The notes under the pieces: generated by a model | The model's input: the letters and a program-made list of their open reading frames with translations, nothing else | Told to the model about the DNA's origin: nothing | Databases searched by the model: none | Shown here: in pieces, positions 6,575 to 16,518 of the stretch | Numbering within the stretch: the first letter of the stretch is position 1 | Layout of the letters: each line of letters starts with the position of its first letter | Translations under genes and position numbers: made by a program | Source of the DNA: Arthrobacter sp. Bi83 | GTDB taxonomy: Bacteria > Actinomycetota > Actinomycetes > Actinomycetales > Micrococcaceae | NCBI RefSeq assembly: GCF_918698095.1 | Contig: NZ_CAKKLY010000020.1 | Coordinates: 1-32,000, forward strand | Length of the DNA: 32,000 bases | Direction: 5' to 3'

Positions 6575-7348
6575 ATGGTTATCGACGGTGCCCAATTGTT
6601 TGTCCGCTATGCCTACCCGCCGAATTCGCGCGGCAGCTGCGGGCCCCCGGACAGTGACGCACTCCTTCACTACGGCCAGTCTGGCGTGACCGACGAGGGC
6701 CTGCGCGAATTGGCCAAGGGCTTCGCGGGGGCGTGGCCTTACCTGGAATTGATCGCCGGCTCCCATGGCATACCGGACCCGCTGGACGCCCGCGTCGTCG
6801 AGGCGTATTGGGTGGGCAACAGCCTGCTGGACTCCGTGGGCATCACCAACATCGGCAACTCCATGGAAGACCGCTTCCGTGCACGCACGGGCAGGCAGTT
6901 CCCGCACCTTGTGGAAGGCGTTCTGGCCGGCGGAGTACCGCACCACAGTTTCCATGTCTTCGAGATCTACCCGTGGTTGGGTCTGCTCCGCGATGACCGC
7001 CGGTACGCCACAGCGTTGCACGTGCTGGACCGGTGCCGGATCCGGTGGGGTGAGGTGCTGGCTGTCACCGGCGACGACGCAGTAGTGCGTACCTGGCCGC
7101 TGTCATGGGATGGAACGACGCTGGATGTGGGCGGCCCGGAGGTGGAGTCGGCCAAGTATGCCGTAAACGGCACCGGCTTCGTGGCGGGCCTCGCGGCAGG
7201 GGACGTGGTGTCACTCCACTGGGATTGGGTGTGCGACCGCCTCAGCCCGCATCAGCTGCAGCAGTTGAAGTACTTCACAGCCCGCCACCTCAAGATTGCG
7301 AACAGCGGCGTGGAGCACCGTGGCGCAGCAATAGCGCTGGAGCGGTAG
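6575..7348 (+). CDS. Conserved hypothetical protein, hydrogenase-neighbourhood family (recalled as DUF6390-like, unverified)
   Basis: 257 aa from ATG 6575, preceded by GAAGGTGG. The sequence begins MVIDGAQLFVRYAYPPNSRGSCGP, contains HHSFHVFEIYPW and ends near LHWDWVCDRL. High GC3. The ORF-track start at 6362 overlaps the divergent binding-protein gene and looks non-coding. Confidence 0.7.
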   Translation: MVIDGAQLFVRYAYPPNSRGSCGPPDSDALLHYGQSGVTDEGLRELAKGFAGAWPYLELIAGSHGIPDPLDARVVEAYWVGNSLLDSVGITNIGNSMEDRFRARTGRQFPHLVEGVLAGGVPHHSFHVFEIYPWLGLLRDDRRYATALHVLDRCRIRWGEVLAVTGDDAVVRTWPLSWDGTTLDVGGPEVESAKYAVNGTGFVAGLAAGDVVSLHWDWVCDRLSPHQLQQLKYFTARHLKIANSGVEHRGAAIALER

Positions 7349-7461: not shown

Positions 7462-7800
7462 CTATGGTGAGTGCGGCGCCGCGCCGTCCGTATCTTCTGG
7501 AGGCTTCACGCCGGTGGAACCGCGCGGAGACGACGTGCCGGTGGGACGCTCAGCCGGAGATTCGTCGGTGCCCGTGTGTTCGCGCCCGGCCTCCGTGCCC
7601 TCCTGTTTGAGCACGTCCTCACCCCGACGGGTGGTGCTCTCGCCGACACCTCGCGGTGGGGGAGCCGCGTCCTCGGGGGTTTCATCAGAGCCGGGGTGTG
7701 CCGGCTCCCTTAGCGGCGGTTCGCTGCCGAACGCGCGCGCCGTGCCCGGGGCTGTCCCTTCGGCCGGCTCGGTCGGAGTGGGTTCATCCGTGGGTGACAT
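7462..7800 (-). CDS. Acidic Pro/Glu/Thr-rich, probably disordered protein (hypothetical)
   Basis: ATG 7800 is preceded by GAGGAGAG. An alternative GTG at 7872 overlaps the hypC end. The translation is low complexity (MSPTDEPTPTEPAEGTAPG...). It is the last ORF of the hydrogenase operon. GC3 is only moderately high. Confidence 0.45.
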   Translation of the reverse strand: MSPTDEPTPTEPAEGTAPGTARAFGSEPPLREPAHPGSDETPEDAAPPPRGVGESTTRRGEDVLKQEGTEAGREHTGTDESPAERPTGTSSPRGSTGVKPPEDTDGAAPHSP

Positions 7801-7858
7801 CTTGCTCTCCTCGCTGTATTTGTGTTCGTCAGCCGCCTCCGGCTGCCCTGACCGGTTT

Positions 7859-8116
7859 CTAGGGGGTATCACCTTCGGGTTCTCTGGGGCGACCCATCAG
7901 TTCCAGGCCGGTCATTGCCCGTTCGGCGCCTGCGTCGTCGACCCGCTCCAGGGCGAAACCCATGTGGATGAGAACCCAGCTGCCCGGCGCCAGCGGGCCG
8001 TCGTCGAGAAGTCCGATATTGATTTTCCGCCGCACACCGGCCACATCAACGAGGGCGAGCTGACCGCCGTAGCCCTCCACGAGCTCAATGACCTGGCCTG
8101 GTATTCCGAGACACAT
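7859..8116 (-). CDS. hypC: Hydrogenase maturation chaperone HypC/HupF family
   Basis: 85 aa starting MCLGIPGQVIEL, the canonical N-terminal Cys2 motif. Located 13 nt downstream of the endopeptidase stop. Confidence 0.9.
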   Translation of the reverse strand: MCLGIPGQVIELVEGYGGQLALVDVAGVRRKINIGLLDDGPLAPGSWVLIHMGFALERVDDAGAERAMTGLELMGRPREPEGDTP

Positions 8117-8129
8117 GACCGCTACCGCC

Positions 8130-8723
8130 TTAGGTTCTGATGGAAGAGTGCCGGACACTGTGCCGGGCAACGAGCGAGCCGACGGCTTCCACTGCCCGCG
8201 GAACGGCGGCCGCAACCGTGGCGGAGAGGCCGAGGCCTTCTGTCACGTCCGCGGGAACGCAGCCCACCACATAAGTGAGGGGCAGCTCTCCGCCGAGGGA
8301 CCGGAGGCGGCCAAGGACGGCTACCGGGTCCATGCCATGCGGGTCGAGGGAAGCGGCGCCGTCCAGATCCTCGCTACGTACATGCAGAACCCGGATGCTT
8401 CCCGGGGCTGACTCCGAAGGCGGTTCGCGTGCCGCTGACGGGTCCGGGTCCGCTGGTCCCGCTGCGTGCAGGTGCCCGTCAGGCGGCACCGCATCCACGA
8501 GCACCAAAACGTCCACGCCGCCCAGCAGGTCGTAGGCCAGATGCATGCCCCGAATGCCGTAGTCGACCACCGTTACGCCCGGCATCGGCAGGGCTGCCTC
8601 CGCGGCCAGCCTCCGTGCGACCTCCGGACCGAACCCGTCGTCACGCAGGAAGATGTTGCCCACTCCGGCCACGAGGACACGGACCGCGGGGGAGGTGGTG
8701 GGGGGCTGGATGCCGGACGTCAC
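8130..8723 (-). CDS. hupD: Hydrogenase maturation endopeptidase (HupD/HyaD/HybD family)
   Basis: Contains VLVAGVGNIFLRDDGFGPEVA (GxGNxxxxDDGxG) and DPHGMDP. Start is assigned to GTG 8723, which forms a GTGA overlap with the upstream micro-ORF stop. The longer ORF-track version to 9053 overlaps two upstream genes. Confidence 0.85.
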   Translation of the reverse strand: MTSGIQPPTTSPAVRVLVAGVGNIFLRDDGFGPEVARRLAAEAALPMPGVTVVDYGIRGMHLAYDLLGGVDVLVLVDAVPPDGHLHAAGPADPDPSAAREPPSESAPGSIRVLHVRSEDLDGAASLDPHGMDPVAVLGRLRSLGGELPLTYVVGCVPADVTEGLGLSATVAAAVPRAVEAVGSLVARHSVRHSSIRT

Positions 8724-8839
8724 ATCCGGCGCACCTTCATGTAGCGCTGGATGTCCGGGACGGAGCGAAGCCCCACGTAAACAGCGCCGAGGGCTACCGC
8801 CGCGAGAACCCAAACGGTGGCCATTCCTACAATTCTCAT
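8720..8839 (-). CDS. 39-aa single-pass membrane micro-protein (absent from the ORF track)
   Basis: Hand translation gives MRIVGMATVWVLAAVALGAVYVGLRSVPDIQRYMKVRRM*. ATG 8839 forms an ATGA overlap with the upstream gene stop (8836-8838). Its TGA (8720-8722) forms a GTGA overlap with the endopeptidase start. GGAAAGGAAGG lies 6 nt upstream. One hydrophobic helix is followed by a basic tail. Confidence 0.7.
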   Translation of the reverse strand: MRIVGMATVWVLAAVALGAVYVGLRSVPDIQRYMKVRRM

Positions 8840-10332
8840 CGCGGGCCTTCCTTTCCATCCTGATCCTGAAACCGGGGACTTGTTCCGGGCGGCATGGGTT
8901 CCAACGGTTCAAGTTCTTCCGGCGCGTAGTAGAAGGACCTGCCGTAACCCTCATGGAGGTCCGCAGCCGGGTCCTGCTCGAGCACCAAGCCAACGTGGGT
9001 GCTGCCATCGACGTCGAAGTGGACGCTCGTGACGCGCCCCGTTTGCCCGGCAAAAAACAGATCCTGGGCGTCCGCCCGCCGGGTGGGATTCACCCTGACC
9101 CGGCTGCCGCGCGACACCGGGACCCCGTTGATCAGGACCGCGTCTTTGTCCGGCTGGACACTGGCGTCCGCCTCGGGGTCCCACCACGGTCTATCACCGG
9201 CGGTCTCATCGCCGGGTGTGGCGTAAAGCGGCGGCCCGTCCGACGGCGGACGGCCCTCCGGCGCAGGGCCCGGGTCACCCAGCGCACGGGGATTACGCAG
9301 GATGCCATGCAGTTGCTGCAGTTCCTCGGCGGACATCGCTTCGCAGCGGTCGATGATCGCCGCCGCACGCGGATCCGTGGCACGGGCTTCCGCTTTTTCC
9401 TCCTCCGTCAGGGTCAGCACCCGCAGCGTGAGGATCTCGTCGATCTCGGTGGAGTCATACAGTGCCACCGAACTTTCCGGCGCTACCGCAGGATGGTCGT
9501 AGAGAATGATGGGGGAAACAAGAAGTACGTCCGTCTGGCCTTCCGGACCGGCCAGCACAGGCCAGCAGCGGTGCTGGGAGCACTCCGAGGCGGCATCCTG
9601 TGCGTCCTGGGGCGGCTCGAGCAGGGAGAGGAAATCCCCGTCCCTCAGGTCCAACAGCAGGTGGGTACCGATGAACGATGCGGCGATGGCGCTGTGACTG
9701 TTGCCCCGCCCGCGGACGTCCGATGCTGCGAAGTCCGTGGCCGTGTTCGCCGCCGACACCCGAAGCCGCACCAGCCGGCCGGTGACGGCGGTGGTTTCAA
9801 GCCTGACTTCACCCCGGAGTGCCCGGCGGCGGCGTACCAGCCGTCCGGCGGACTGCCCCGTCGGCCTTCCCCTGCCGTCGGTAAGTTCCTCGATGTCCTG
9901 GCCTGCCGGGACCTCCACCGGCACGATCAGCGGTGAGTCGGCCCCCGTCAGCTGCGAGAGCGGAAAGGGCCCCAGGGTTATGTCCTGTTCCACTGCCTCA
10001 TCCCAGCTGATCCAGTGAGCGGTACCGATGGTGAGCTCATCCACCGGACTGAACCCGCCGCCGTCGTCCGCTTTTTCCGCGGTGCGCGTCTGAAGCTGCA
10101 GGAAGCGCAGATGCACTTCCACCTCGGCCTGCGGCCCGCGGCTCAGCAGGCAGTCGGCGTACATGCCGGGTTCTTCCCCGGCACCCGAGTCCGCCGCACC
10201 CGGCGGGCCGAGGATGCCAAACTGCCAGCGCGCCTGGTTCTTCTGCGACGAGGCGCGGTAGGGGTACAACAGGTAACCCTCGTAAAGGACGGCATCCGCC
10301 ACCGCCCTGGCAAGGCTCAGACTCATGTTCAT
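8836..10332 (-). CDS. Conserved hypothetical protein, 498 aa, hydrogenase-operon associated
   Basis: ATG 10332 (MNMSLSLARAVADAVLYEGYLLYPYRASSQKNQARWQFGILGP...) forms an ATGA overlap with the upstream stop (10329-10331). High GC3. I recognise no catalytic motif. The ORF-track start at 10455 adds an Arg/Gly-rich extension overlapping the upstream gene. Confidence 0.8.
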   Translation of the reverse strand: MNMSLSLARAVADAVLYEGYLLYPYRASSQKNQARWQFGILGPPGAADSGAGEEPGMYADCLLSRGPQAEVEVHLRFLQLQTRTAEKADDGGGFSPVDELTIGTAHWISWDEAVEQDITLGPFPLSQLTGADSPLIVPVEVPAGQDIEELTDGRGRPTGQSAGRLVRRRRALRGEVRLETTAVTGRLVRLRVSAANTATDFAASDVRGRGNSHSAIAASFIGTHLLLDLRDGDFLSLLEPPQDAQDAASECSQHRCWPVLAGPEGQTDVLLVSPIILYDHPAVAPESSVALYDSTEIDEILTLRVLTLTEEEKAEARATDPRAAAIIDRCEAMSAEELQQLHGILRNPRALGDPGPAPEGRPPSDGPPLYATPGDETAGDRPWWDPEADASVQPDKDAVLINGVPVSRGSRVRVNPTRRADAQDLFFAGQTGRVTSVHFDVDGSTHVGLVLEQDPAADLHEGYGRSFYYAPEELEPLEPMPPGTSPRFQDQDGKEGPR

Positions 10333-12721: not shown

Positions 12722-14518
12722 TTACTCGCCGGTCAGGGTCTGGGTGGGTGAGTGCATCGTCTCAAGTGTTTGGCCGTTGCCCAGATACATGTGGACGCCG
12801 CAGGGGAGGCACGGGTCAAAGCTGCGGACGGTGCGCATGATGTCGATGCCTTTGAAGTGTTCCCGGTCGTTCTCCTCGAAGATCGGCTGACCCTGCACGG
12901 CATCCTCGTATGGGCCGGCCACGCCCGCCGAGTCTGTGGGGCTGGCGTTCCACGGCGTGGGCGGGTAGGGATGGTAGTTGGCGATCTTGCCGTCGCGGAT
13001 CACCATGTGGTGCGACAGGACGCCGCGCACAGCCTCGGTGAAGCCGCAGCTGATTGCTTCGTCCGGGACCTCGAAGGTTTCCCAGGTCTTGGTGTGGCCG
13101 GCGCGGATTTCCTCCAGTGCCTTTTCCGCGAAGTGCAGCGCGGCTGCGGCGGCATACGCCTGGAAGTAGGTGCGGGCCCGGTTGCGCTCCAGCGTGTTGC
13201 TCCACTGCGGGATGTTCCACTCGAAGGAAACAGGACCCTTCAGCGCGGTCTTGGGCAGGTTGATCTGGACGCTCGTGCCGGTGGACTTGATGTAGCCGAT
13301 GTCCACCAGCCCGGCCAGCGCCGTTGCCCAGAGGCGCGCCAGCGGCCCGCCGCCGGTGTCCAGCGCCAGGTTGTTCTGGCCGTCAAACCAGCGCGGGGAC
13401 ATGACCCAGCTGTACTTTTCCGCGAGGTCCCGCTTCTGCGGCCGCGGATTGGTGTGCTGGTTCCAGGGATGCCGCCGGTCCACCGGGTTGCCCAGTGGAT
13501 CGTGGGTCACGAACATCTCCTGGTCTTCCCAGTCCTCGTAGTAGGAGGAGCCAAGCATGATCCGGATGCCCAGGTTGATCCGCACCAGGTCCGTGGTGAC
13601 CAGGTTGCCGTCCACCACGACGCCCGGGGTGACGAACATCTTCCGGCCCCATTCGGTCATGTCCTTGTACTCGAAATTGCAGTAGTCGGGGTCCTGGAGC
13701 GAGCCCCAGCAGCCCAGCAGCGTGCGCCGCAGCCCCACCTGTTCGTACCCCGGCAGCGCCTCGTAGAAGAAGTCGAAAAGGTCGTCATGCATGGGGACGA
13801 CTTTCTTCATGAACTCCACGTACCGCATGAGCCGCGTGATGTAGTCCGTCATCAGCTGGATGGTGGCAACTGTACCCACGCCGCCCGGGTAGAGCGTGGA
13901 AGGGTGCACGTGGCGCCCCTCCATGAGGCAGAACATTTCGCGGGTTGCCCGGCTGACCTGCAGCGCCTCCCGGTAGAACTCGCCGGTGAAGGGGTTCAGC
14001 GAGCGCATGATGTCGGCGATGGTCCGGTAGCCGTGCTCGCCCTCGTGCGGTGCCCGGGTGTTTTCCGCCTTGGCCAGGACGCCGGGGTTGGTCTCGGACA
14101 CCATCTTTTCGCAGTAGTCCACGCCCACCAGGTTTTCCTGGAAGATGTTGTGGTCGAACATGTACTCAGCCGCTTCGCCCAGGTTCACTATCCACTCACC
14201 CAGGTTTGGCGGCTTCACCCCGTACGCCATGTTCTGCGCATAGCAGGAACAGGTGGCGTGGTTGTCCCCGCAAATTCCGCAGATGCGGCTGGTGATGAAA
14301 TGGGCGTCCCGGGGGTCCTTGCCCTTCATGAAGATGGAGTAGCCCCGGAAGATCGAGGACGTGCTCTTGCACTCCACCACCTGGTTGTTCGCGAAATCGA
14401 TCTTGGTGTAGATGCCGAGGCTGCCGACGATCCTCGTGATCGGGTCCCAGGCCATCTCCACCAGGTTGTTGTTGTTGTCCGCGCCGCTCCGGGAAGGCAT
14501 TGGAATCGTGGAGGTCAT
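12722..14518 (-). CDS. hhyL: [NiFe]-hydrogenase large subunit, group 1h (formerly group 5) high-affinity type
   Basis: 598 aa. N-terminal metal-binding motif TSRICGICGDNH and C-terminal SFDPCLPCGVH, followed by a 22-aa extension (MYLGNGQ...TGE) of the kind removed by the endopeptidase. Confidence 0.93.
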   Translation of the reverse strand: MTSTIPMPSRSGADNNNNLVEMAWDPITRIVGSLGIYTKIDFANNQVVECKSTSSIFRGYSIFMKGKDPRDAHFITSRICGICGDNHATCSCYAQNMAYGVKPPNLGEWIVNLGEAAEYMFDHNIFQENLVGVDYCEKMVSETNPGVLAKAENTRAPHEGEHGYRTIADIMRSLNPFTGEFYREALQVSRATREMFCLMEGRHVHPSTLYPGGVGTVATIQLMTDYITRLMRYVEFMKKVVPMHDDLFDFFYEALPGYEQVGLRRTLLGCWGSLQDPDYCNFEYKDMTEWGRKMFVTPGVVVDGNLVTTDLVRINLGIRIMLGSSYYEDWEDQEMFVTHDPLGNPVDRRHPWNQHTNPRPQKRDLAEKYSWVMSPRWFDGQNNLALDTGGGPLARLWATALAGLVDIGYIKSTGTSVQINLPKTALKGPVSFEWNIPQWSNTLERNRARTYFQAYAAAAALHFAEKALEEIRAGHTKTWETFEVPDEAISCGFTEAVRGVLSHHMVIRDGKIANYHPYPPTPWNASPTDSAGVAGPYEDAVQGQPIFEENDREHFKGIDIMRTVRSFDPCLPCGVHMYLGNGQTLETMHSPTQTLTGE

Positions 14519-14545
14519 TTTTCTCGCCTGTCTGGAAGTGGGTGG

Positions 14546-15604
14546 TTACCAGGTGCGCTGCGCGCCGGTAAGGAGCTCGCGTCCGGGCCGGCGCCATTTC
14601 GGCTCCTGGTCCAGGGTGTGGGTGGTGATGCCGCGCAACGCCCGGATGGCGGATCCGTAAGGCCGGATGGTGTTGGTGGAGAGTTTTCCGCCCGGAGGCT
14701 CGTCCATGAAGGGCATGAACTTGTCCGGGAAGCCGGGCATAGTGCAGCCGATGCAGATGCCGCCGACGTTCGGGCAGCCGCCGATGCCGTTCATCCAGCC
14801 CCGCTTCGGTACGTTGCACTTGACCACCGGGCCCCAGCAGCCGAGTTTGACGATGCACTTGGGGGAGCCGTATTCGGTGGCGAAGTCGCCCTGCTCGTAG
14901 TACCCGGCACGGTCGCAGCCCTCGTGGACTGTCTTGCCGAACAGCCAGGTGGGCCGGAGCGCGTCGTCCAGCGGAATCATCGGTGCCTGGCCAGTGGCCT
15001 GGTACAGCAGGTAAGTCATGGTCTCGGAGAGATTGTCCGGCTGGATCGGGCAGCCCGGGACGCAGACAATCGGGATGCCTGCCTTCGATCTCCAGTCATA
15101 GCCGAGGTAGTCCGGGACTCCCATGGCGCCTGTTGGGTTCCCCGCCATCGCGTGGATCCCGCCGTACGTGGCGCACGTGCCGGCCGCAATGATTGCGGTG
15201 GCTTTCGGCGCCAGGCGGTCCAGCCATTCGCTCGTGGTGATGGGCTGGCCCGTCTCGAGATCGTTGCCGAACCCGCACCAGTAGCCGCCGGGGTCGTGGA
15301 GTTTTTCGTTGGGGATGGACCCCTCGACCACCAGGACGAACGGTTCCAGTTCCCCACGGTCCGCCTTGCGGAACCACTCCAGGAAGTCGTCGGCTCCTTC
15401 CTGGGGTCCGCACTCGAAGTCGATCAGGGGCCAGTGCATGGCAATCCGCGGCAGACCGGGCAGGGCGCCGAGGGCGATCTCTTCGACGCTGGGCTGTGTG
15501 GCCGCCGTCAAGGCAACTGAATCGCCGTCGCAGCTAAGTCCGGCGTTGATCCACAGCACGTGAATAAGGGCTTCTTCGGCCTTGATGGATGCTTCGGTAG
15601 GCAT
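14546..15604 (-). CDS. hhyS: [NiFe]-hydrogenase small subunit, group 1h, no Tat signal
   Basis: Contains LSCDGDS, GTCATYGG, VPGCPIQPDN, KLGCWGPVVKCNVP and CPNVGGICIGC. ATG 15604 is preceded by GAAAGAGG. The ORF-track TTG 15637 overlaps the hypB stop and is less likely. The N-terminus has no RRxFxK twin-arginine motif. Confidence 0.92.
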   Translation of the reverse strand: MPTEASIKAEEALIHVLWINAGLSCDGDSVALTAATQPSVEEIALGALPGLPRIAMHWPLIDFECGPQEGADDFLEWFRKADRGELEPFVLVVEGSIPNEKLHDPGGYWCGFGNDLETGQPITTSEWLDRLAPKATAIIAAGTCATYGGIHAMAGNPTGAMGVPDYLGYDWRSKAGIPIVCVPGCPIQPDNLSETMTYLLYQATGQAPMIPLDDALRPTWLFGKTVHEGCDRAGYYEQGDFATEYGSPKCIVKLGCWGPVVKCNVPKRGWMNGIGGCPNVGGICIGCTMPGFPDKFMPFMDEPPGGKLSTNTIRPYGSAIRALRGITTHTLDQEPKWRRPGRELLTGAQRTW

Positions 15605-15633
15605 CGGTGCCTCTTTCGGTGGCCCGTGAGGGC

Positions 15634-16518
15634 TCAATGTGCGTCTGTCAGAGATTCAGTCAAGGGGTCTGACCGGGATGTCGAACCGTCCAACCAGCCG
15701 TACCAGGCAGCCAGGCCTTCGCCGGTGGCGGCCGAGACGGTCAGGAATTCGGCCCGCGGGTTGACCTGCCGGATGCGGCGCAGGCACTCGTCGACGTCGA
15801 AATCGACATAGGGGAGCAGGTCCGACTTGTTGACGATCACGAGGTCGGCTGCCATGAACATGTGCGGGTATTTCTGCGGTTTGTCATCACCTTCCGTTAC
15901 CGAAACGACCACGACCTTGGCAGTTTCGCCAAGGTCGAAAAGAGCTGGGCAAACGAGGTTGCCCACGTTTTCAATAAAGACTGTGGAGCCGGTTTCCGGG
16001 TCCAGGGCGTCCAGTCCGCGCCGGAGCATGTCGGCATCGAGATGGCAGCCGGCCCCGGTGTTGATCTGGATGACCGGACGGCCCACTGCGCGGATCCGGT
16101 CAGCATCCAGGGACGTTTCCTGGTCCCCTTCAATGACGCCGGCCTGCAAGTGCTCGCCCAGGTCCGTGAGCGTGCGGACCAGGAGCGTTGTCTTGCCGGC
16201 GCCGGGCGAACTCATGACGTTGAAGGCCCGGATTCCGCGGCCGGCAAGCCAGCCGCGATTCCTTGCCGCCAGCAGGTCATTCTTGGCCAGCAGGTTCTGT
16301 TCGAGTGAGATGGTCTCAGGGTGGCAGAGGGCATGCTGATGGCCGGGGTGTTCGTGCTCGTGGCCATGCTCATGCTCGTGCTCGTGCTCGTGCTCGCGTT
16401 CGTGCTCGTGGCTGTGCCCGTGCTGATGCGGATGCTCATGCCCGTGGGTGTGGTGGGGTTCCTCGAGGGTTGAGACCCTGGTGTTCGCCTCATCGCCGCA
16501 GCCGCATGTTGTACACAT
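15634..16518 (-). CDS. hypB: Hydrogenase nickel-incorporation GTPase HypB with His-rich tract
   Basis: N-terminal MCTTCGCG (CxxCGC high-affinity Ni site) and a roughly 45-aa His/Glu-rich tract. P-loop SSPGAGKTTLL; also ENVGNLVCP and the NKSD G4 motif. Confidence 0.95.
   Translation of the reverse strand: MCTTCGCGDEANTRVSTLEEPHHTHGHEHPHQHGHSHEHEREHEHEHEHEHGHEHEHPGHQHALCHPETISLEQNLLAKNDLLAARNRGWLAGRGIRAFNVMSSPGAGKTTLLVRTLTDLGEHLQAGVIEGDQETSLDADRIRAVGRPVIQINTGAGCHLDADMLRRGLDALDPETGSTVFIENVGNLVCPALFDLGETAKVVVVSVTEGDDKPQKYPHMFMAADLVIVNKSDLLPYVDFDVDECLRRIRQVNPRAEFLTVSAATGEGLAAWYGWLDGSTSRSDPLTESLTDAH

What the first reader, a model, noticed from the sequence alone, without database searches (positions are those of the whole stretch)
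8720..8839. Unannotated 39-aa transmembrane micro-ORF coupled at both ends, the only obvious membrane segment I noticed in the operon
The 112-bp apparent gap between the 498-aa gene and the endopeptidase encodes MRIVGMATVWVLAAVALGAVYVGLRSVPDIQRYMKVRRM. Its ATG overlaps the upstream stop (ATGA) and its stop overlaps the downstream GTG (GTGA). A GGAAAGGAAGG ribosome-binding site precedes it. It has one hydrophobic helix plus a basic amphipathic tail. Reading by eye, I saw no other clear transmembrane helix in the operon products. Group 1h hydrogenases are reported to be membrane-associated despite lacking an anchor subunit. This micro-protein could be the missing anchor or a quinone-site component. 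It falls below typical ORF-calling thresholds and is missing from the supplied track.
Basis: partly seen in the sequence, partly recalled or inferred. Interest (0 to 1): 0.6.

Follow-up and report, generated by a model that had tools for sequence, protein, structure and literature searches.

The report
Hydrogenase-cluster membrane micro-protein (DUF6893)
The 39-codon frame is a real, strongly conserved gene for a one-helix membrane peptide of the catalogued but untested family DUF6893, found almost only in gene clusters for the hydrogenase that consumes atmospheric hydrogen, which makes it a testable but unproven candidate for how that enzyme is held at the membrane.

Summary
A 39-codon ORF lies on the minus strand at 8839..8720. 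Its ATG overlaps the stop of the upstream 497-aa gene (ATGA), its stop overlaps the GTG of the hupD-type endopeptidase (GTGA), and GGAAAGGAAGG lies 6 nt upstream.

It is a real gene. It scores 47.1 bits against Pfam DUF6893 (cut-off 24.6). Among Arthrobacter-type relatives dN/dS is 0.06-0.35 in this frame, against a pooled pN/pS of at least 1.1 in the other two frames. A homologue follows the 497-aa gene in 79 of 79 assessable related loci. In other lineages it sits after hupD, so it is not a hupD N-terminus.

It is not new. NCBI names homologues 'DUF6893 family small protein', the Cupriavidus necator H16 homologue is PHG071, and this exact protein is already in NCBI nr. This scan reached the same reading on other genomes.

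It is the only operon product with a transmembrane-grade hydrophobic segment. The helix sequence varies, while the basic C-terminal tail is conserved, with invariant R, Y and terminal M. No searchable paper assigns a function, and a 2026 paper says group 1h hydrogenase still has no identified anchor.

The anchor idea stays plausible and untested. Against it, eight genuine 1h clusters lack the gene, it lies among maturation genes, and C. necator, whose enzyme is reported cytoplasmic, has a homologue.

The parts
8720..8839 (-). DUF6893-family small protein gene: 39 codons plus TGA.
   Evidence: Translation. Pfam PF21833 at 47.1 bits against a cut-off of 24.6. Whole-genome scan gives this one copy only, at 45.9 bits. 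dN/dS is 0.06-0.35 in this frame.
8846..8856 (-). Shine-Dalgarno-like GGAAAGGAAGG, 6 nt upstream of the ATG, lying inside the 3' end of the upstream gene.
   Evidence: Sequence. An SD-like motif sits at the same place in 78 of 78 homologous loci and in the genus relatives.
8768..8833 (-). Residues 3-24: the hydrophobic, predicted transmembrane helix.
   Evidence: KD19 maximum is 2.12. The uncharged stretch is mostly 21-27 residues in the 39-aa subfamily. Residue identity varies but stays hydrophobic. The AF2 model is a single helix over residues 2-38 with pLDDT 94.
8723..8767 (-). Residues 25-39: the conserved basic C-terminal tail (R-S-x-P-D-x-x-R-Y-x-K-x-R-x-M-stop), predicted to face the cytoplasm.
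   Evidence: In 120 unique family sequences, R(-8), Y(-7) and M(-1) are invariant, D(-11) occurs in 113, P(-12) in 108 and R(-3) in 111. The terminal Met is kept with TAG, TGA and TAA stops alike.
8836..10329 (-). Upstream partner gene ('p498', 497 aa, no Pfam family). Its stop overlaps the micro-ORF start (ATGA).
   Evidence: Homologous to C. necator pHG1 locus H16_RS31865 at 35% identity. The AF2 model (pLDDT 78) shows a beta-sandwich, a helical region and a C-terminal SH3-like domain. Its stop overlaps or abuts the small gene's start in most of 78 loci.
8130..8723 (-). HupD/HyaD-type hydrogenase maturation endopeptidase. Its GTG start overlaps the micro-ORF stop (GTGA).
   Evidence: TIGR00072 at 105.5 bits, with the match starting at residue 17. 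Pfam HycI.
12722..15637 (-). Context: the group 1h [NiFe]-hydrogenase structural genes, hhyS (15637..14546) and hhyL (14518..12722).
   Evidence: Pfam hits. HhyL scores 1064 bits against PDB 5AA5 chain C, the C. necator group 1h large subunit. HhyS has no Tat signal and no C-terminal membrane helix.

Best explanation
The ORF encodes a DUF6893-family micro-protein dedicated to group 1h (Hhy) [NiFe]-hydrogenase gene clusters. It is most likely a bitopic membrane peptide. Residues 3-24 would span the cytoplasmic membrane, the very short N-terminus would face outward, and the strongly basic, conserved 15-residue C-terminal tail would face the cytoplasm. The tail is the conserved part and the helix needs only to be hydrophobic. 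I therefore infer that the peptide acts as a membrane tether. Its tail would dock a soluble product of the Hhy cluster at the inner face of the membrane. That partner could be the HhyS/L enzyme, possibly with the HhyE-like Fe-S protein, or the late assembly complex around the 497-aa protein and HupD.

Shown here: the gene is real, under purifying selection and translationally coupled; it is the only transmembrane-grade segment in the operon; it is linked almost exclusively to Hhy clusters; the tail is conserved.

Inferred only: the topology, the docking, the identity of the partner, and any effect on Hhy localisation or electron transfer to menaquinone.
For: The gene is real. It matches Pfam DUF6893 at 47.1 bits against a cut-off of 24.6. 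Pooled pN/pS is 0.40 in frame, against 1.10 and 1.39 out of frame, and third codon positions vary in 31 of 39 codons against 18 and 16 for the first and second positions. The length is a fixed 39 aa with no indels across Arthrobacter, Mycobacterium, Rhodococcus, Nocardia, Nocardioides, Streptomyces and Asanoa.

It is linked to Hhy. In one 401-genome sample of the phylum, 33 of 37 genomes with a DUF6893 match also have the cluster marker DUF6084. Two of the four exceptions are decayed Hhy clusters. The other two are weak matches inside very long open frames. All 30 fetched loci place it beside hupD and the p498 homologue. Homologues also occur in proteobacterial 1h clusters, in C. necator pHG1 (PHG071) and, weakly, in Methylocystis parvus.

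It has membrane character. Its KD19 is 2.12 while every other operon product stays at or below 1.55. The model is a single helix with pLDDT 94. The C-terminal flank carries net +4 against about +1 at the N-terminus in the window protein.

Conservation sits in the tail.

The need is open. M. smegmatis Hhy is found only in the membrane fraction and resists 5% cholate although it has no predicted membrane segment (10.1101/769216, section 6). [quoted passage not shown] No PDB chain matches the family, and 5AA5 is the only 1h structure.
Against: Eight intact-looking 1h clusters lack any DUF6893. Their HhyL is 63-66% identical to the window's and their order is hhySL-hhyE-DUF5947-DUF6084-p498-hupD-hypAB. 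They show no consistent replacement membrane ORF. It therefore cannot be a universal anchor.

The gene always lies in the accessory and maturation part of the cluster, next to hupD or p498 and never next to hhyS/L. Its coupling to those genes suggests their expression level rather than that of the structural subunits.

C. necator H16 has a homologue, yet its group 1h enzyme is reported cytoplasmic (PMC7174314), and the crystal entry 5AA5 contributes no chain matching this family. This is mitigated in part: the C. necator peptide and the whole 'after hupD' subfamily have hydrophobic stretches of only about 12-18 residues, 8 in C. necator by the strict count.

No experiment or complex prediction was available here, so the partner is unknown.
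Confidence: 0.45

Rival explanations
1. It is a maturation-only helper. The peptide would work with HupD and the 497-aa protein during the last steps of large-subunit assembly, for example by holding processing at the membrane. It would not be part of the mature enzyme.
For: It is always adjacent to hupD or to p498, on either side of hupD depending on lineage. It is translationally coupled to both neighbours here. It persists next to hupD and hyp genes in two decayed clusters that have lost the structural genes. Soluble, active C. necator enzyme exists without it in the crystal (PMC7174314).
Against: There is no precedent in the searchable literature for a membrane step in HupD-type processing. 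Clusters that lack DUF6893 still keep hupD and p498, so those proteins do not need it. The persistence in decayed clusters may only reflect recent decay, since hupD in G384 is itself truncated.
Confidence: 0.3
2. It is a component of the quinone-reduction site. The helix would form part of a menaquinone-binding or menaquinone-delivery site together with HhyS or HhyE.
For: Hhy feeds electrons to the menaquinone pool, as shown by HQNO inhibition (10.1101/769216). The peptide is the only membrane-embedded product in the operon.
Against: The membrane helix is the least conserved part. It has no conserved polar or aromatic residue apart from G5, which is unlike a cofactor or quinone site. The gene is absent from eight genuine 1h clusters.
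Confidence: 0.08
3. It is a small accessory subunit or modulator of another membrane complex that is co-expressed with Hhy, such as a terminal oxidase or a nickel transporter. This would resemble CydX-type micro-subunits.
For: Single-helix micro-proteins commonly serve respiratory complexes (general knowledge). In the decayed mycobacterial locus it lies in a nicO-hypB-...-hupD-hypF neighbourhood.
Against: Its distribution follows Hhy clusters, not oxidases or transporters. There is only one copy in this genome, inside the operon. No transporter gene is consistently adjacent.
Confidence: 0.1
4. It is not a separate gene. The stretch would be spacer, or the N-terminal extension of the endopeptidase read in another frame.
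For: In this G+C-rich DNA the hupD frame stays open upstream as far as 9053.
Against: Purifying selection is found only in the micro-ORF frame. The hupD family model starts matching at residue 17 of the GTG-8723 protein. In relatives hupD starts downstream of the peptide's stop. In many lineages the peptide gene lies after hupD. The exact protein and its homologues are called by public annotation.
Confidence: 0.02

Closest known systems
Pfam PF21833 (DUF6893), named 'DUF6893 family small protein' by NCBI. It includes PHG071 of Cupriavidus necator H16 megaplasmid pHG1.
   Same: The window protein is a member by HMM score. It shares the architecture of a short hydrophobic helix followed by P-D-x-x-R-Y-x-K/R-x-R-x-M at the C-terminus. 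It shares the genomic home, a group 1h hydrogenase cluster beside hupD.
   Different: There is no difference in kind. The Arthrobacter/Mycobacterium subfamily is a fixed 39 aa, has a long helix (mostly 21-27 uncharged residues) and lies before hupD. The C. necator and 'after hupD' subfamily is 33-36 aa with a shorter hydrophobic stretch. The family has no assigned function, and no searchable paper mentions DUF6893 or PHG071.
HylTM1-5, the small predicted transmembrane proteins of group 1l [NiFe]-hydrogenase clusters, and the two 82-92-aa single-helix proteins of group 1m clusters.
   Same: These are small predicted membrane proteins encoded inside clusters for high-affinity, Tat-less uptake hydrogenases related to group 1h. 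They were proposed, speculatively, to form a membrane complex with the enzyme (10.1101/2020.08.06.239558; PMC9561532).
   Different: HylTM genes lie between the small- and large-subunit genes, and there are five of them. DUF6893 is single and lies beside hupD. Sequence relationship was not tested, because no HylTM sequences were on hand. Function is untested in both cases.
Canonical anchors of membrane-bound group 1 hydrogenases: the C-terminal helix of the small subunit together with cytochrome b (HyaC/HoxZ).
   Same: The proposed role is the same, holding a [NiFe]-hydrogenase at the cytoplasmic membrane and linking it to quinone (PMC6883350, introduction).
   Different: Those enzymes are periplasmic and exported by Tat. 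Their cytochrome b has four helices and haem-ligating histidines. DUF6893 has one helix and no histidine, and its partner enzyme is cytoplasmic.
HucM, the scaffold and stalk subunit of the group 2a hydrogenase Huc of M. smegmatis.
   Same: It is a small extra subunit that explains the membrane association of an atmospheric-H2 hydrogenase that lacks predicted membrane segments (PMC10017518).
   Different: HucM is about 189 aa. It forms a tetrameric amphipathic coiled-coil tube that touches the membrane peripherally, and it is encoded with the structural genes. DUF6893 is a 39-aa hydrophobic helix. Hhy's membrane binding resists cholate while Huc's does not (10.1101/769216).

Membership tests
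Pfam DUF6893 (PF21833) | The score against the family HMM is above the curated gathering cut-off. | tested here: met
   47.1 bits against 24.6, E 2.4e-12, covering residues 11-39. The six-frame genome scan gives 45.9 bits and a single copy.
Pfam DUF6893 (PF21833) | A protein of about 33-40 aa with one hydrophobic helix and the conserved C-terminal R-Y...R-x-M end. | tested here: met
   Alignment A3 of 40 sequences has 39 columns and no gaps, with invariant M1, G5, D29, R32, Y33 and M39. Across 120 unique sequences R(-8), Y(-7) and M(-1) are invariant.
Pfam DUF6893 (PF21833) | The genomic context is a group 1h hydrogenase cluster, next to hupD. | tested here: met
   30 of 30 loci. 79 of 79 assessable loci. 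The window operon runs hypAB-hhySL-hhyE-DUF5947-DUF6084-p498-DUF6893-hupD-hypC. HhyL scores 1064 bits against 5AA5.
Membrane anchor subunit of group 1h hydrogenase (hypothetical role) | A membrane-spanning segment. | tested here: met
   KD19 is 2.12 and the hydrophobic stretch is 22 residues. The AF2 model is a single helix. This is prediction only.
Membrane anchor subunit of group 1h hydrogenase (hypothetical role) | Presence wherever the enzyme is present. | tested here: not met
   Eight 1h clusters with HhyL 63-66% identical to the window's lack it and have no consistent substitute. In the 401-genome sample, 33 of 45 genomes carrying the cluster marker DUF6084 matched the Pfam DUF6893 model. 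A custom profile found one more divergent copy.
Membrane anchor subunit of group 1h hydrogenase (hypothetical role) | Physical association with HhyS/L, and a requirement for membrane localisation. | not testable with these tools
   No complex prediction or experiment was available. No PDB chain matches the family.
Cytochrome b-type hydrogenase anchor (HyaC/HoxZ) | Four transmembrane helices with haem-ligating histidines. | tested here: not met
   The protein has 39 residues, one helix and no histidine.
HylTM proteins of group 1l clusters | Position between the small- and large-subunit genes, and sequence similarity to HylTM. | tested here: inconclusive
   The position differs: here it lies between p498 and hupD. 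Similarity could not be tested because no HylTM sequence was held.

The most novel reading that the evidence does not exclude
DUF6893 is the long-sought integral membrane subunit of actinobacterial-type (group 1h) hydrogenase. Its helix would anchor, and its invariant R-Y...M tail would dock, HhyS/L (with HhyE) at the cytoplasmic face of the membrane. This would explain the cholate-resistant membrane binding of Hhy and position the enzyme to reduce menaquinone. Lineages lacking the gene, or carrying only the short-helix form as in C. necator, would then have loosely bound or soluble, lower-affinity enzymes.
Probability: 0.22. Interest if true: 0.75.

Novelty: already known. Interest (0 to 1): 0.42.

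Why it matters
Group 1h hydrogenases are a major biological sink for atmospheric H2. How they attach to the membrane and pass electrons to the respiratory chain is still open; a 2026 paper (PMC13332983) states that no anchoring subunit has been identified. The only membrane-type product of these clusters is a 33-39-residue peptide that no searchable paper discusses. This gives a cheap, direct test: delete or tag one micro-gene in M. smegmatis or C. necator and ask where the enzyme goes. If the peptide proves to be only an assembly helper, that would still be the first function for a gene conserved in most of these clusters. For this window specifically, the result is ordinary. It is one more copy of a catalogued family, and this scan has met it several times before.

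Tried and rejected
- The search of protein representatives with the single peptide gave only 24 hits at E up to 1e-3, mostly 39-aa proteins. The one apparent fusion, P0004 (275 aa), is a garbled, frameshifted p498 tail read into the peptide frame, not a true fusion. It gives no Rosetta-stone evidence.
- The AF2 model of the 497-aa neighbour and its fold search gave only a generic SH3-like C-terminal domain, PetP-like with TM-score 0.62-0.77 on the target. The top 'DrmAB' hit was meaningless. Neither gives a functional clue for the peptide.
- I looked for a replacement membrane ORF, or a membrane helix fused to another subunit, in the eight clusters that lack DUF6893. None was consistent; there was one 70-aa two-helix ORF in one locus only.
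- The two 'DUF6893 without DUF6084' genomes looked at first like evidence that the peptide follows hupD/hyp rather than Hhy. Both turned out to be decayed clusters: a large deletion in G243 and an N-terminally truncated hupD in G384.
- I rejected the idea that the invariant terminal Met is forced by the GTGA overlap. It is kept with TAG (37), TGA (34) and TAA (7) stops, and also where no gene follows directly.
- I did not attempt to build an artificial fusion for a pseudo-complex prediction.

Full report
**What is there.** Read on the minus strand, 8839..8720 is an ATG-to-TGA frame of 39 codons (P0001). The ATG (8839-8837) overlaps the TGA (8838-8836) of the upstream gene. The TGA (8722-8720) overlaps a GTG (8723-8721) that opens the hupD-type endopeptidase. 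GGAAAGGAAGG (8856-8846) lies 6 nt before the ATG.

**The operon.** All genes are on the minus strand, in this order:
- hypA and hypB
- hhyS and hhyL
- a NifU+Rieske HhyE-like protein
- DUF5947 and DUF6084
- a 497-aa protein with no Pfam family ('p498')
- this ORF
- hupD and hypC

HhyL scores 1064 bits against PDB 5AA5 chain C, the Cupriavidus necator group 1h enzyme. The group 1h assignment is therefore sound. The closest homologous loci are from Arthrobacter.

**It is a real gene.**
- The peptide matches Pfam DUF6893 (PF21833) at 47.1 bits against a cut-off of 24.6. It is the only such match in the 4.9-Mb genome.
- Seven same-genus sequences give pairwise dN/dS of 0.06-0.35 in this frame. Pooled pN/pS is 0.40 in this frame and 1.10 and 1.39 in the other two. 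Third codon positions vary in 31 of 39 codons, against 18 and 16 for the first and second positions.
- I fetched 80 loci with a p498 alignment. They come from Arthrobacter, Mycobacterium and Mycolicibacterium, Rhodococcus, Nocardia, Nocardioides, Streptomyces, Asanoa and many MAGs. In 79 of the 79 loci that extend past p498, a DUF6893 gene follows p498 directly.
- In 78 of those loci the start codon is ATG (73) or GTG (5), and an SD-like motif is present in 78 of 78. The p498 stop usually overlaps the start, by 4 nt in 27 loci, 13 nt in 21 and 10 nt in 8.
- The 39-aa subfamily aligns without a single gap (A3).

**It is not the N-terminus of hupD.**
- The hupD family model begins matching at residue 17 of the GTG-8723 protein.
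- In two relatives hupD starts a few bases after the peptide's stop.
- In most other actinobacterial lineages, and in C. necator and Methylocystis, the order is p498-hupD-DUF6893.

**It is already catalogued.** NCBI names homologues 'DUF6893 family small protein'. The C. necator H16 homologue is PHG071 (AAP85824.1 / WP_011153993.1). The exact window protein is held in NCBI nr. No paper in the searchable library mentions DUF6893 or PHG071. Other agents of this scan reached the same identification on other genomes. I read those notes only after forming my own reading.

**Anatomy.**
- With a 19-residue Kyte-Doolittle window the peptide reaches 2.12. None of the other 11 operon products exceeds 1.55.
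- AF2 with the 40-sequence alignment gives one continuous helix over residues 2-38, with pLDDT 94.
- Across 120 unique family sequences the hydrophobic part varies freely in identity. The last 15 residues are highly conserved: R(-8), Y(-7) and M(-1) are invariant, D(-11) occurs in 113 of 120, P(-12) in 108, S(-14) in 100 and R(-3) in 111.
- The terminal Met is kept with all three stop codons and where no gene overlaps. It is therefore a protein-level constraint.
- The tail carries net +4 and the N-flank is 2-4 residues long. By the positive-inside rule (established knowledge; inference here) the tail faces the cytoplasm, where the Tat-less Hhy enzyme sits.
- The 39-aa subfamily mostly has 21-27 uncharged residues. 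The 33-36-aa 'after hupD' subfamily, which includes C. necator, has only about 12-18, and 8 in C. necator by the strict count.

**Distribution.** I searched one 401-genome sample of the phylum with both family models.
- DUF6893 matched in 37 genomes and the cluster marker DUF6084 in 45. Both matched in 33.
- Of the four genomes with DUF6893 only, two are weak matches inside 795-aa and 840-aa open frames. The other two are decayed clusters.
  - G243 is a PE-PGRS-bearing mycobacterium. It keeps nicO-hypB, a small-subunit remnant, a p498 remnant, DUF6893, hupD and hypF.
  - G384 has an N-terminally truncated hupD and only a 444-aa non-1h large subunit elsewhere in the genome.
- Of the 12 genomes with DUF6084 only:
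  - one has a divergent copy after hupD;
  - two are cut by contig ends;
  - one is degraded (a partial p498 and no hupD);
  - eight lack the gene.
- Those eight share the order hhySL-hhyE-DUF5947-DUF6084-p498-hupD-hypAB. In the seven that are not frameshifted, HhyL is 63-66% identical to the window's, and none has a consistent substitute membrane ORF. The eighth (G236) is itself frameshifted.
- The gene is therefore nearly exclusive to 1h clusters but is not universal in them.

**Function.**
- M. smegmatis Hhy is found only in the membrane fraction and resists 5% cholate, although it has no predicted membrane segment (10.1101/769216, section 6).
- The Methylacidiphilum 1h enzyme is membrane-associated, and its affinity drops on isolation (PMC7174314).
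- A 2026 paper states that no anchoring subunit has been identified (PMC13332983).
- The PDB holds only the two-subunit 5AA5 structure and no chain like DUF6893.
- Sister groups 1l and 1m have small membrane proteins in their clusters that were proposed, speculatively, to bind the enzyme (10.1101/2020.08.06.239558; PMC9561532).

A variable helix joined to an invariant cytoplasmic tail is what a tether should look like. I therefore favour a tether role, at confidence 0.45. The docked partner could be the enzyme or its late assembly complex.

Three things weigh against a simple 'missing anchor':
- the eight clusters without the gene;
- its fixed place beside hupD and p498 rather than beside hhyS/L;
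- C. necator, which has PHG071 but a reportedly cytoplasmic enzyme (softened by the short hydrophobic stretch of PHG071).

A maturation-only role is the main rival, at 0.30. I could not run a complex prediction or read any expression data, so the partner remains unknown.

**Side results.**
- The AF2 model of p498 (pLDDT 78) shows an N-terminal beta-sandwich, a helical region, a disordered linker and a C-terminal SH3-like domain. Fold search gave nothing functionally informative.
- By gene order in a published microarray table, MSMEG_2714 ('hypothetical protein', between MSMEG_2715 and the M52 peptidase MSMEG_2713) is probably the M. smegmatis orthologue (PMC5445863). This is an inference and was not checked by sequence.
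- This genome and three other Hhy-bearing genomes of the genus, one of them closed, give no HypD match. This genome also gives no HypF zinc-finger match. A mycobacterial genome and a genome of another genus of the class both have HypD.

**Verdict.** It is already catalogued as DUF6893 with unknown function. The anchor interpretation is plausible, testable and unproven, and there is real counter-evidence.

Noticed in passing
Whole genome G000, and genus relatives G417, G009 and G402: There is no HypD (PF01924) match in this 100%-complete genome, and none in three other Hhy-bearing genomes of the genus, one of which is a closed single contig. This genome also has no HypF zinc-finger (PF07503) match. 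A mycobacterial genome (G069) and a genome of another genus of the class (G054) both have HypD. Even so, the hhy operon genes here are under purifying selection. This agrees with the earlier scan note e1-2464228.
   Followed up: partly
L063:2952-3519, L069:5204-5815, L082, L097, L098, L114 and L125; compare window 7462-7872 (-): In about ten related loci, one or two small, acidic, disordered ORFs of about 65-115 aa lie between DUF6893 and hupD. They carry recurring motifs such as EEPQxERG...SRDTGSDEP and PPYEGR. They have no Pfam match. The window has a compositionally similar acidic, Pro-rich ORF after hypC.
   Followed up: partly
L031 (G243:C1:2938000-2957000): A PE-PGRS-bearing mycobacterium keeps a decayed Hhy cluster. 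It has nicO, hypB, a 119-aa small-subunit remnant, a 40-aa p498 remnant, then an intact DUF6893, hupD and hypF.
   Followed up: partly
L024 (G190) and L030 (G349): Two DUF6893 paralogues lie in one hydrogenase cluster. In L030, one lies before hupD and one after it.
   Followed up: no
window 8836-10329 (-): The 497-aa protein has no Pfam family although it is conserved from Arthrobacter to Cupriavidus and Methylocystis (35-55% identity). Its AF2 model shows a beta-sandwich, a helical region and an SH3-like C-terminal domain that resembles PetP of cytochrome b6f only at fold level.
   Followed up: partly
window 6575-7348 (+): The ORF convergent with the end of the operon is a DUF6390 family protein (298.6 bits).
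   Followed up: no
L071: A contig labelled 'Candidatus Sericytochromatia' MAG carries a mycobacterium-like Hhy accessory block with a 39-aa DUF6893 gene. This suggests either a binning error or horizontal transfer.
   Followed up: no
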